The notes under the pieces: model-generated
Told to the model about the DNA's origin: nothing
Database searches by the model: none
What the model saw: only the letters and a program-made list of their open reading frames with translations
Assembly: GCA_000182565.2 (NCBI GenBank)
Contig: KQ257455.1
Strand: one strand, 5' to 3'
Origin: Spizellomyces punctatus DAOM BR117
Lineage: Eukaryota
Length of the DNA: 64,000 nucleotides
Made by a program: the position numbers and the translations under genes
Shown here: positions 26,245 through 36,424 of the stretch, piece by piece
Numbering within the stretch: position 1 is the first letter of the stretch
Layout: every line of letters starts with the position of its first letter

Positions 26245-29200
26245 TTATTGTTTTATCCCACACTCTGCTATATGTTTTTTGAGGCTTGGAATGTTGCGGC
26301 ATTCGGTTTTGCATCGATGGCACAGCAACGGGCCTTTCAACATTGCCTCGTAAGTCGCTTCATTGTACTTGAATAAAACGTCAGTTATAAGGGCCCAGTG
26401 CAGCTGCCGACCCGCTCTAACATATGACGTAACCCTCACCCGCACTTGGCCCTTTGCGTCTAGCATAGATCGAACCGTATCGAAGTCAAGAAAAAACTGT
26501 GAGGTAAATGAGTTCCAGTGCTTCTTGTTCTTCAGCGCCGCCGAGTCGAAATCTTGGCTGATAACATGCATGTGGAGCTGCCTGTTACATTTGATCAAAG
26601 CTAGATATGTGAAAGGCTTCCTTTTGCATCCCGGTATCTGGACCACACACCTCATACTAGGAATGGCGTGAAACCCGATGCGAAATTCTAGCGAAGCATC
26701 TTTCTTACGCATCTCGTTCACGACCTCATCCGCCTTTCGTTTCATGCTATCCAAAAGAGGTAAATCTTCTCTCGATAAGACCGCAAGCCCGTCACGGGGT
26801 TGCCTCGGAAGAATTAAGAGATGCTTTTTTGCCTATCAACCAGTATGAAAATCTCGGAAGTCGAGCTGAAGATGAGATCACAGCGGTTGTCTGCACCTTG
26901 GGATACTTGTCCCGGATGACAACTAAATGATCATCGTAGGATAACACATCCTGGGGGTGCTGTTCGGGATGCAGGCAGTACGGTCTAAGAGCGTCATTCC
27001 ATCTTCCTCCAGATTTGGGCATATCGGCCACATCTGCTTCGTCACCGAGAGATACGGGAGTTCTCGGCTGTGACATTAAAACACTGACTGTATAAAAGTC
27101 TCAACAATGATCCATTAAGATCAATCATCTCAACGCACAACTGTGCACTTACATGCGTTCTTTGTGTCGGTGGTACGATCCGATGTGGTCAATCCCCTCA
27201 GATCAGCGAAGGAGTTGAAGATTGCCTTGTACACCGTCTCAAGCTTTGCAACAGCATCATCGTCATTACTAAGACAATCAGGTCTCTTTGGGTTTAAATT
27301 TGGTCCAACCACATGAATGACCTGTACGACTATCAGCACAGGCTCGGTACTTTGGAGACAGAGAAGATAACCTGTTCAACATGCTCGTCCATGAACAGAG
27401 GCGATGTACTTTCTACAGGTACGGGATACGCTTTGCCAATCTGCACGTCAATCACCAACGTACGTTAAATTGCAAGCTAATGTGCATGAAGCAAGCCGTT
27501 CAAACCTCAGCTGGTTTCGGATAGAGCTGTTTAGCTGACTGCATTAGCTCCACGCCCGCGCGTTCATGCACCGCCTTACAGCTTGCGGTTGCCGCTGCAT
27601 AAATTGATGAGAAGTTTGATCCTTTAAGTGATACTGCAGGGTTTCGCTACATACACGGTTTCCACCTCCATGATGTTTCTACAACAATTGCCCGACATGC
27701 CAGTCCTTGTGATGTGTGCATTCTAGATATGTCGCCTTGAATGACTCGAAAACGCGGTAGGTCTGCCAACCGCTATGACAGACAATTGAGTTGAGTGGCG
27801 GTAAGATTTCATGTCGCACATTGCTGAAATCTAAATGAATGGGAGGAATGTCAACCTTGTTACCTGATGAAATTGATTCAAAATGGCCTCGTTAGCGTCA
27901 ACAAGGACGCATTCAACATTGAGCCATGTGGGGAGGCTAAGAAACTCGCGAATGATTTTCGATGCACACTCTGCTGCTTTATCTACGTCAAATTGGCCTT
28001 CGGTTGTTGAAATTGATGCAACGGCAATTCTATCTAGCAAACCTCGTCAAAAGGCAGCATGTATTTGAAAGATTTCCATTACCCACCAACACCATGATCT
28101 GTGTGGTTGGAATCATCGACTCGTTTGTTATCTGGTAGTCTACTCTGCCGTACATCCCCAAGACTTTGACAGGTCTCACCAGAATCATTGGTGTTGATCG
28201 GTATCTTCTGGTCGGCATCGCCTTGGTCAGCCTCAGTGTCCTTATCCTCGACAGAGGAACGACTCAAAACCGGAGGTAGGTTTGTTACGGGGCTGGAGAT
28301 CTTGATAGGGTTTGGTATATTCGACGATACGTCCTTCTCGTTCACCCCACCATCATCTTCTTCGTCACGGTAACTAACCTTGCGTGTTGCAGACGATCTG
28401 CTCGATCGCCGAGTTTTTACATCCCCTGTTGAGGTACCGCTTTTCGTTAGCTTGGCATTCAACTGGGAGGAGTCTTTATCGAGCCAAGGATGTGCAAACT
28501 CTGCAAAATGCATAGGATTCTTGCGGTAGCATGATTGTCCATACTTGCAGACTCGCCTTGAGTCCACATCATCCAGCAGGTCGTCTGGTCCTTCCATTTC
28601 GTCCTCGTCTTCGTCTTCTTCATATTCAACGTCCTCATCAGAGACGACGAAATCGGGATCATCCGGATCGTAATAGTCGTCCTGATCTTGATCGATGGAT
28701 CTACGCCTCCTGTTACGCAGTGTCGCTTTCACATCCTGTACTTTTGTAGAGGATCGTCCGTGCACACGCCTTTTCGAAACTCGTTCATCATCATCATCCG
28801 TCGTTCCCGGTGGCCGCTTCTTTCCAGCGATGGCCGATGGTTGCCCGTCCAAGAGTTTAACTTCGATCTGGTAGTAATGCTCCCCTTGTAGCTGTCATGC
28901 ATCGTTTAATGAGTCTGAGTACCACAGCTAAACGCATCCGACGAACTGGGCAAAGTAAACACACTAAGAAAAAACCGTCGCCGCTTCGGAGTTCAAATTC
29001 ATTGTCTTTCCCGACAGCTTCTTCAGCAGCCCCGTCAATCCGCACAAATGAGTCATTGGGACCTAGCTGTCGTATAGTGATTGAGCCAGTCTCGTTATTG
29101 TATTTCAATTGTACTGTAAACTCTGTGGTTAGAAAAGAACTGTTTCACGGCCAAGTGTGCATTGCTGTCGCACCCTGCTGTCTGCTGCATCGTTTGGTTT

Positions 29201-29306
29201 CCACGCCCCATATTTTCCGCCCCAAAATGATTATTCCTTCCTTGTCCTTTTCCGCTTCCAAGAGATGGCGTTCGCCATTGTCCTCTATAAGAGAAATTGC
29301 GTACAT
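26245..29306 (-). CDS. APTX: Multidomain aprataxin: FHA - acidic tract - PBZ - circularly permuted macrodomain - HIT - Zn finger
   Basis: FHA IILGRK..KRCSRQQ..RQLGPNDS; PBZ CKYGQSCYRKNPMHFAEFAHP; macro IQGDIS and VIHVVGPNLNPKRPD; HIT VVIRDKYPKAKKHLLILP, GFHAIPSMRQLHMHVISQDF, KHWNSFT; ZnF CHRC..PSLKKHIAEC. All joined in frame by GT-AG introns. Confidence 0.9.
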
Positions 29307-29507
29307 TGCTCCTTCAGCGATCTTCCGGAAGGAAGTTGGCTGGTGACGTTGGATGGGCACATTCGAATGTCCATGGAACTCAATTTCAATCCCTAAAAGG
29401 ATATGGCTACAACCCAGCCAGTCTCACGAAAATCGCGAGGGGGACGCAACGAGCAACATCTTTCATCTCAACGAGCAGAATTTAACCTGAACAGGGGATC
29501 TTCTTTG

Positions 29508-35249: not shown

Positions 35250-36167
35250 ATGCCTGAAATGGCGGGCCTTACTGACGTCTTCCGCAACCATGTGCAAGTC
35301 ATTGAGAGCCACAGTACTCGATATGTCCTGAGTTCGTCCCTTACCGGGGATCTCTGGATCGTCCAGCTTGTGGGAGAGTCGCACCTTTACGAAGCGCGTT
35401 TAGCGAATTCAGACCAAGAAAGTTTGGTATGCCTCTTGTGAACAGAGTTGCACCTTTTGCATTTAGTGGCATACCACTATGAACTGTGTTCTGTGTCTGC
35501 CTGCATATTAGTTATCAGATACGCATCAAAGTACTCGTTTTGAAACTGCCTGGAGGGCCCGAGATATCGCTATTATCGAAAGGAGCGGACGGTCTGCTGA
35601 AGTATGCAGTTCGATTATGACACAGCCTGTTGTACATAACCGTAAATAATGGCGCATAGTTGATAGTCGACCCGATTGCTACATACCCATTCAAAATTCA
35701 ATTGAAAGGAAAGGAGTATGAGACATTTGAAGCTCTCAGGAACTTGCTTCTATTATTGGCTGATGCTTCAATTGGGAGGCCGCATACCGATGCATTTCCA
35801 AGAGCCGGTGTGTTGTATTTCGACATATAGACAGTGTACTATCCATCCATCGTGACCGCTTATCTTAGATGAAAGGATAAGACAGTTGGAAGATGAACTG
35901 CAAGCTGCCAAGAGAGAACTGGAAAGAATAAAAGGAATGGCATCCAACCTGACAATGGACATAGGTATATCCCATGAACCTTCTAATTACATCAGTATGG
36001 AGTCCAGGATACTGATCTTTGTGAACGCCACACTGCATGTAGGCCCGTCAAAACGTAGCGCACCGGTGAAAAAAGCAAGCATGGCAAAGAGCCTGGTAAA
36101 TCCTAGAGTGAAAATGAAGGTTGCAAAGGGCACGGAATTCGGAAGCGACACGGATGACGAAGAGTAA
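35250..36167 (+). CDS. PAXX: PAXX-like (XRCC4/XLF superfamily) NHEJ factor; 5 exons, about 200 aa
   Basis: Beta-rich head (RYVLSSSLTGDLWIVQLVGESHLYEARL), FKIQLKGKEYETFEALRNLLLLLAD, coiled coil, and C-terminal SLVNPRVKMKVAKGTEF matching the PAXX Ku-binding motif SLINPGFKSKKPAGGVDF. Confidence 0.75.
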
Positions 36168-36424
36168 TATCCGCTACAAGAAGATTGACATACTACTTGG
36201 AGAGTATTGCACAGAGCGGGAGAAATGTATTGTGGTTATGAATACATGGGGACGCCATCCCTTCAGTTGCCTCCTCGGTTATCAGCAATAGAAGTCGATG
36301 AGTCGGTATAGACAAGAGGGACACCAATCCCCCTGATATCAGGACACTGGTTGACTCCTCTGAGCGATCGCTACACAGCGATGTGGTCTTGCGATGCAGA
36401 TACACACGCAGCCGCCGCCCCCTT

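What the first reader, a model, noticed from the sequence alone, without database searches (positions are those of the whole stretch)
35250..36167. PAXX-like NHEJ factor in a fungus, hidden across five exons
Seen: the spliced product is about 200 aa, with a head domain, a helix FEALRNLLLLLAD, a short coiled coil and the tail KSLVNPRVKMKVAKGTEFGSDTDDEE (about 36087-36167). Known: human PAXX has a similar size and layout and binds Ku70 through SLINPGFKSKKPAGGVDF; budding and fission yeasts have no recognised PAXX. Inference: early-diverging fungi kept an animal-like Ku-PAXX module.
Basis: partly seen in the sequence, partly recalled or inferred. Interest (0 to 1): 0.7.

Follow-up and report, generated by a model that had tools for sequence, protein, structure and literature searches.

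The report
Chytrid fungus keeps DNA-repair protein PAXX
An unnamed five-exon gene in a chytrid fungus most likely encodes PAXX, a helper protein for joining broken DNA ends that is known from animals, plants and protists but missing in budding yeast.

Summary
Five exons with GT-AG introns give a 211-aa protein, identical to a public 'hypothetical protein' record, P0002. AlphaFold models of it and of a 29%-identical chytrid ortholog both show the XRCC4-family head. Both match Arabidopsis PAXX best (Z 13.2 and 13.4, next 10.4 and 10.2); human PAXX only ties with XRCC4. The tail is the most conserved part among chytrids (75 of 100 positions against 78 of 410 in the head). It keeps three of four human PAXX residues needed for Ku70 binding. 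The genome has separate XLF, SAS-6, Ku70, Ku80, LIG4 and DNA-PKcs genes and an XRCC4 candidate. Against: no Pfam PAXX hit for this protein; RNA reads confirm only intron 4; binding is untested. Verdict: probable fungal PAXX ortholog (about 0.85), a new member of a known kind. 'Animal-like' is too narrow, because PAXX is already reported from plants, ciliates, amoebae and Naegleria. I found no fungal PAXX named in the texts searched, but could not see the key survey's figure and table.

The parts
35250..35426 (+). Exon 1 (residues 1-59): strands 1-4 and first helix of the head
35427..35511 (+). Intron 1, 85 nt, GT-AG
   Evidence: matches public model; no read joint listed
35512..35601 (+). Exon 2 (residues 60-89): second head helix, strand 5, start of strand 6
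35602..35659 (+). Intron 2, 58 nt, GT-AG; retention would stop the protein at about residue 104
   Evidence: read depth about 22 inside it and no joint listed in run X7
35660..35807 (+). Exon 3 (residues 90-138): strands 6-7 and first stalk helix 112-127
35808..35868 (+). Intron 3, 61 nt, GT-AG
   Evidence: no read joint listed
35869..35964 (+). Exon 4 (residues 139-170): coiled-coil helix 138-166
35965..36042 (+). Intron 4, 78 nt, GT-AG, in frame and stop-free, but spliced in RNA
   Evidence: 3 junction reads, zero depth in bin 35980-36023
36043..36167 (+). Exon 5 (residues 171-211 and stop): disordered basic linker, Ku-binding motif, acidic end
36090..36140 (+). PAXX-type Ku-binding motif, S187 to F203 (S187, N190, T201, F203 correspond to human S184, N187, V199, F201; spacer one residue shorter)

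Best explanation
The gene encodes the chytrid ortholog of PAXX, a non-enzymatic scaffold of non-homologous end joining. Shown by computation: an XRCC4-superfamily head, a helical stalk, a disordered linker and a conserved terminal motif of the PAXX type. Inferred from human PAXX: two chains pair through the stalk; each tail docks in the groove between the Ku70 vWA domain and the Ku core (S187/N190 at patch 1, T201/F203 at patch 2) once Ku is on a DNA end; the dimer thereby tethers two Ku or DNA-PK complexes, holds the ends together and helps XRCC4-ligase IV seal them, partly redundantly with XLF.
For: Head topology of seven strands with two helices between strands 4 and 5, as defined for the superfamily. 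In the wide search the first 18 rows (Z 6.8-12.7) are XRCC4/XLF/PAXX/SAS-6/CCDC61 entries plus one Toxoplasma conoid-fibre chain not identified here, then Z falls to 4.6; top is Arabidopsis PAXX, Z 12.7, rmsd 3.1 A over 124 residues. Second look: 13.2 against 10.4 for the next entry. Ortholog P0003: 13.4, then human PAXX 10.2 tied with XRCC4. ESM Atlas: best named family by features is PAXX (0.86, ahead of XRCC4/XLF 0.82) and top structural row is PAXX, TM 0.49/0.53. P0003's only Pfam hit is PAXX, E 0.0037. Tail identity 75 of 100 against 78 of 410 in the head; S, L, N, P, R, A, G invariant in 7 of 7. Partners in G000: Ku70 and Ku80, DNA-PKcs, LIG4 XRCC4-binding motif. The other paralog slots are filled by separate genes: XLF, SAS-6, XRCC4 candidate. 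Ku70 keeps R165 and R517, two of the four human contact residues.
Against: P0002 itself has no Pfam PAXX hit at E<=10; only 1 of 8 proteins scanned... of P0001-P0007, 1 of 7 hits PAXX, at 17.3 bits, under the cut-off of 25. No sequence match to solved PAXX chains. Human PAXX (Z 9.4-9.7) ties with XRCC4, CCDC61 and SAS-6 for the P0002 model, and Foldseek by E-value ranks XRCC4 fusions and XLF first. The Atlas feature score for the named PAXX cluster is under 0.9, a lead only. The stalk ends at residue 162-166, against 144 in human PAXX. Ku70 has T at H163; F471 could not be aligned. Introns 1-3 lack read support. The XRCC4 candidate has only weak profile support (E 0.1).
Confidence: 0.85

Rival explanations
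1. A separate XRCC4-superfamily paralog with a PAXX-like tail but another job, for example a CCDC61- or SAS-6-like scaffold at the basal body of flagellated zoospores.
For: CCDC61 head Z 10.2 and SAS-6 Z 9.5 equal or exceed human PAXX 9.4 for the P0002 model. All sequence-level relatives with a name are chytrids. CCDC61 was not looked for in G000.
Against: SAS-6 is a separate gene. The CCDC61-specific helix between strands 5 and 6 is absent from the P0002 model. For P0003 the centriolar proteins fall to Z 8.4 or less. The Atlas look-alike clusters are mostly Basidiomycota and Streptophyta. The tail keeps the Ku70-contact residues.
Confidence: 0.07
2. A shortened duplicate of XRCC4 or XLF.
For: Foldseek E-value ranking puts XRCC4 fusions and XLF first. 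The stalk is longer than in human PAXX. XRCC4 was not found by Pfam in G000.
Against: The recalled ligase-IV-binding stalk motif of XRCC4 occurs once in G000, at another locus, in a gene with a head-sized start and a longer coil. XLF is separate. No fold-back helices follow the stalk. A search of G000 with P0002 finds only itself and one unrelated weak match.
Confidence: 0.05
3. The gene is real but mostly unproductive, because intron 2 is often retained and truncates the protein.
For: Run X7 shows depth of about 22 in intron 2 and no listed joints for introns 1-3.
Against: One run, 6 in 100 read, 60-nt reads, uneven peaks that may be unspliced precursor RNA. The spliced product aligns end to end with orthologs about 30% identical and folds as a complete head only when spliced.
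Confidence: 0.03

Closest known systems
Arabidopsis PAXX (PDB 8p26; Khan and Ochi, 10.1101/2023.05.26.542399)
   Same: Best structural match, Z 12.7-13.4, rmsd about 3 A over 124-125 residues; similar layout of head, stalk, disordered region and terminal Ku-binding motif; like it, found by fold and tail and not by a Pfam hit in the Atlas cluster that probably holds it.
   Different: About 10% identity. Plants lack XLF, and Arabidopsis lacks DNA-PKcs; this genome has both. Head-to-head binding of XRCC4, shown for the plant protein, is untested here.
Human PAXX (C9orf142; Pfam PF15384; PDB 3wtd, 8bh3)
   Same: Similar size (211 against 204 aa), same head fold, tail with S, L, N, P, G and F at the Ku70-binding positions; same cellular company (Ku, DNA-PKcs, XLF, LIG4).
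   Different: 10-13% identity, no Pfam hit, stalk about 20 residues longer with a low-confidence break at 128-137, motif spacer one residue shorter, T for V199, invariant R after the NP, longer acidic end.
XRCC4, XLF, SAS-6, CCDC61
   Same: Shared head fold (Z 7-10).
   Different: Lacks the long ligase-binding stalk of XRCC4, the fold-back helices of XLF, the long coils of SAS-6 and CCDC61 and the CCDC61 insertion; XLF, SAS-6 and an XRCC4 candidate are separate genes in G000.

Membership tests
PAXX orthologs (criteria of Khan and Ochi) | XRCC4-superfamily head: seven-stranded barrel with helix-turn-helix between strands 4 and 5 | tested here: met
   definition
PAXX orthologs (criteria of Khan and Ochi) | Structure closer to PAXX than to XLF, without fold-back helices | tested here: met
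   Plant PAXX leads by 2.5-3.2 Z in two proteins; human PAXX ties with XRCC4; P0003 stalk is one continuous helix
PAXX orthologs (criteria of Khan and Ochi) | C-terminal PAXX-type Ku-binding motif (human S184, N187, V199, F201) | tested here: met
   S187, N190, F203 identical, T201 for V199; S and N in 7 of 7, F in 6 of 7 chytrid tails
PAXX orthologs (criteria of Khan and Ochi) | Short coiled coil that forms a homodimer | tested here: inconclusive
   Helices 112-127 and 138-166, 110-162 in P0003: longer than human; the dimer was not modelled
PAXX orthologs (criteria of Khan and Ochi) | Matching site on Ku70 (human H163, R165, F471, R517) | tested here: inconclusive
   R165 and R517 kept, H163 is T (short-exon alignments at E 0.1-1.4); F471 not aligned
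PAXX orthologs (criteria of Khan and Ochi) | Binds Ku70/80 on DNA and stimulates end joining | not testable with these tools
   Needs pull-down, EMSA and ligation assays
Pfam entry PF15384 (profile score only) | Score at or above the gathering cut-off of 25 bits | tested here: not met
   No hit for P0002; 17.3 bits for P0003. It is therefore not filed under the Pfam entry; the ortholog call rests on fold, tail and paralog accounting
XLF/Nej1 | Fold-back helices after the stalk; XLF head profile | tested here: not met
   separate XLF gene over cut-off
XRCC4/Lif1 | Long stalk with the ligase IV-binding motif (motif recalled) | tested here: not met
   The pattern's single match in G000 is at C6:941368, not here
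SAS-6 | SAS-6_N profile and long coiled coil | tested here: not met
   No hit for P0002; separate gene, E 1.6e-22
CCDC61/VFL3 | Extra helix between strands 5 and 6; long microtubule-binding coil | tested here: not met
   Strands 78-84 and 87-92 are joined by a tight turn; feature. A CCDC61 gene was not sought in G000

The most novel reading that the evidence does not exclude
Fungal PAXX is widespread and overlooked, not a chytrid relic: the two nearest fungal Atlas clusters (scores 0.94 and 0.90; 68 and 105 members, commonest phylum Basidiomycota, no common Pfam family) are PAXX orthologs in Dikarya, which lack DNA-PKcs. The fungal protein is of the plant type, binding XRCC4 by its head as well as Ku by its tail, even where XLF is present. 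The dual function would then be ancestral, and human PAXX the reduced form.
Probability: 0.3. Interest if true: 0.6.

Novelty: new member of a known kind. Interest (0 to 1): 0.38.

Why it matters
Fungal end joining is described from yeasts, and budding yeast lacks both DNA-PKcs and PAXX. This chytrid has Ku, DNA-PKcs, LIG4, XLF, a likely XRCC4 and a likely PAXX, so it is a single-celled fungus with nearly the vertebrate set. It would let one ask whether PAXX and XLF redundancy predates animals, and whether the XRCC4 binding of plant PAXX is ancestral. It also names a hypothetical family in at least seven chytrid records. The surprise is limited, because PAXX is already known across eukaryotes.

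Tried and rejected
Pfam on single exons: no PAXX, XRCC4 or XLF hit. PF15384 against G000: no candidate, and no control genome rang, so uninformative. PF06632 and PF21924 against G000: nothing. Sequence searches of the PDB with P0001, the chytrid profile, the tail exon and P0003: no PAXX chain. Atlas search with the tail alone: no usable hit. Metagenome scan with the tail patterns: 73 stretches matched, none confirmed. The weak second match of P0002 in G000 (C1:990822, E 1.63) lies in an unrelated reading frame. PDB sequence searches with two XRCC4-candidate exons found no XRCC4 chain. Ku70 F471 region did not align. No RNA holder was listed by the index; runs X1, X2 and X4 gave unspliced contigs from one sample. 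The complex predictor was not available, so there is no verdict on the dimer or on Ku binding. Viral fold library: best rows are giant-virus proteins with TM 0.34 or less by query and high rmsd; not pursued. Earlier scan findings: none. Paper searches were dominated by papers without PAXX and are weak. Rejected: intron 4 retention as the main form; the 706-aa P0004 as a true fusion (probably two genes merged in a partial model on a 3.6-kb contig; not tested).

Full report
Observation. The window holds a five-exon gene on the + strand at 35250-36167. Exons 35250-35426, 35512-35601, 35660-35807, 35869-35964 and 36043-36167, separated by GT-AG introns of 85, 58, 61 and 78 nt, give 211 aa. This is identical to P0002, a public record named hypothetical protein SPPG_03921 of Spizellomyces punctatus. 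A 92%-identical record from a second Spizellomyces has the same splicing. The gene is single-copy in G000. Its neighbours are an LMBR1-like gene and eIF1A, both on the - strand.

Expression. RNA run X7 (about 6 in 100 read, 60-nt reads, 1948 laid, most on eIF1A) gives sense-strand reads over the gene. The one listed joint is intron 4 (3 reads, 3 starts), with zero depth in the bin inside it. This matters because intron 4 is in frame and stop-free. Introns 1-3 have no listed joint, and intron 2 has depth of about 22, like its flanks. Their splicing therefore rests on the public models, on end-to-end alignment with distant orthologs and on the fold, not on reads.

Relatives. A full phmmer scan of 1.84 billion representatives gave 6 proteins at E<=0.001, and a profile search added one more. 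The six with a name are from Spizellomyces, Powellomyces, Borealophlyctis, Phlyctochytrium, Thoreauomyces and Geranomyces, all chytrids (phylum assignment from my own knowledge); P0007 is an unnamed fragment. Against five non-Spizellomyces sequences, identity to P0002 is 78 of 410 aligned positions in the head, 42 of 138 in the coil and 75 of 100 in the tail motif (P0007 left out because it lacks the tail). S, L, N, P, R, A and G of the tail are invariant in 7 of 7. Pfam gives P0002 no PAXX hit. Of P0001-P0007, only P0003 hits PAXX, as its sole family, at E 0.0037 and 17.3 bits, under the cut-off of 25.

Structure. The AlphaFold2 model (mean pLDDT 71.5, pTM 0.53, head blocks 79-91) has strands at 14-20, 23-32, 35-41 and 46-51, helices 53-59 and 63-74, strands 78-84, 87-92 and 100-107, then helices 112-127 and 138-166 and a low-confidence tail. 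This is the XRCC4-superfamily head as described in PMC7267773. Against 48,161 representative chains the top match is Arabidopsis PAXX (Z 12.7, rmsd 3.1 A, 124 residues), followed by CCDC61 10.2, XRCC4 10.0, SAS-6 9.5 and human PAXX 9.4; after rank 18 Z drops to 4.6. A second look gave 13.2 against 10.4. A model of P0003, built from a largely shared alignment, gave Arabidopsis PAXX 13.4, human PAXX 10.2, XRCC4 10.1-10.2 and centriolar proteins 8.4 or less. Foldseek by E-value ranks XRCC4 fusions and XLF first; among the listed rows the best target-normalised TM is a PAXX-entry chain in both runs (0.55 and 0.54). The ESM Atlas puts PAXX first among named families by features (0.86, a lead only) and first by structure (TM 0.49/0.53); its nearest clusters are unnamed, mostly Basidiomycota (0.94, 0.90) and Streptophyta (0.92). 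So superfamily membership is firm, and the subfamily call leans on plant PAXX and on the tail.

Tail. In human PAXX, S184 and N187 (patch 1) and V199 and F201 (patch 2) are needed for Ku binding (PMC10413649). The chytrid tail has S187, N190, T201 and F203, with a spacer one residue shorter; F is kept in 6 of 7. On the Ku70 side, the G000 gene keeps R165 and R517 and has T for H163 (short exons, E 0.1-1.4, 9 of 10 hits Ku70 in each); F471 could not be aligned.

Paralog accounting in G000. XLF scores over its cut-off at C8, SAS-6 at C5, Ku at C1 and C10 (C10 is Ku70, C1 taken as Ku80), DNA-PKcs at C1 and the LIG4 XRCC4-binding motif at C1. Pfam missed XRCC4. A recalled stalk motif matched once in 24 Mb, with 0 matches for the reversed control, at C6:941368, in a multi-exon gene with a head-sized start and a coil; profile support is weak (XRCC4_CC E 0.1), so it is a candidate. 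CCDC61 was not sought. The PAXX slot is the one left open.

Mechanism. Most likely (0.85) this is a PAXX ortholog. Shown by computation: fold, layout, conserved tail, presence of partners. Inferred from human PAXX: dimerisation through the stalk, docking of each tail on Ku70, and bridging of two Ku or DNA-PK complexes to help ligation. The complex predictor was not available, so neither dimer nor Ku binding was modelled. Rivals are a centriolar-type paralog (0.07), a shortened XRCC4 or XLF duplicate (0.05) and a mostly unproductive gene (0.03).

What is known. Khan and Ochi (10.1101/2023.05.26.542399; parts 1-3 of 4 read, term search) report PAXX in plants, ciliates (Die5p), amoebozoans, Naegleria and C. 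elegans (NHJ-1). The main text names no fungal PAXX but says most opisthokonts have the set; Figure 1 and Table S1 were not visible and the journal version is not held, so a fungal entry there cannot be excluded. The alignments in PMC10413649's supplement are metazoan (also seen: abstract, results part 1 of 3, sections 9 and 10). PMC8549938 (passages) places DNA-PKcs in Chytridiomycota and Mucoromycota but not Dikarya. A 2026 preprint (passages) says budding yeast lacks DNA-PKcs and PAXX. A 2026 fungal DNA-repair review has 0 occurrences of PAXX (passages), as does PMC9779921 (listing only). PMC12636532 and 10.1101/763235 (passages) add nothing on fungi. Searches for PAXX with fungi, chytrid, Spizellomyces, Mucoromycota, fungal and Filozoa showed no paper naming a fungal PAXX, judged mostly from listings; subscription journals are largely outside the library.

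Verdict. A real gene and a probable fungal PAXX, a new member of a known kind. Interest 0.38. The boldest open reading (probability 0.3, interest 0.6) is that PAXX runs through Basidiomycota as well and is of the plant, XRCC4-binding type.

Noticed in passing
window about 26250-29420 (-): Multi-exon aprataxin-like gene 6 kb from the PAXX gene: PBZ finger (E 2.5e-12), HIT-like DcpS_C and C2HE finger, with FHA-like and macro-like stretches seen by eye only (no Pfam hit). It joins aprataxin and APLF-type parts.
   Followed up: partly
window 36167-36290: Convergent overlap: eIF1A (-) poly(A) ends map to 36205 and 36207, about 38 nt past the PAXX stop, while + strand reads continue to about 36290.
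   Followed up: no
window 35602-35659: Intron 2 is covered by reads as deeply as its flanks in run X7 with no joint listed; retention would truncate the protein.
   Followed up: partly
L016:534-1567 (G000:C6, about 940400-941430, +): XRCC4 candidate missed by Pfam, found by one motif match.
   Followed up: partly
ESM Atlas rows: Two giant-virus (Nucleocytoviricota) clusters of 180 and 193 aa resemble this head (TM 0.39-0.50), and the top viral fold matches are uncharacterised giant-virus proteins: possible XRCC4-type heads in giant viruses, weak.
   Followed up: partly
ESM Atlas rows 1 and 3: Two unnamed clusters, commonest phylum Basidiomycota (68 and 105 members), score 0.94 and 0.90; their sequences could not be retrieved.
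   Followed up: no
P0004: 706-aa partial model in which the PAXX-like first 214 residues run into an unrelated membrane-protein-like region; probably a merged gene model.
   Followed up: no
L001 (G000:C8:1157184-1160345, +): The XLF gene appears to end in a basic and hydrophobic tail like the XLF Ku80-binding motif (motif recalled).
   Followed up: no
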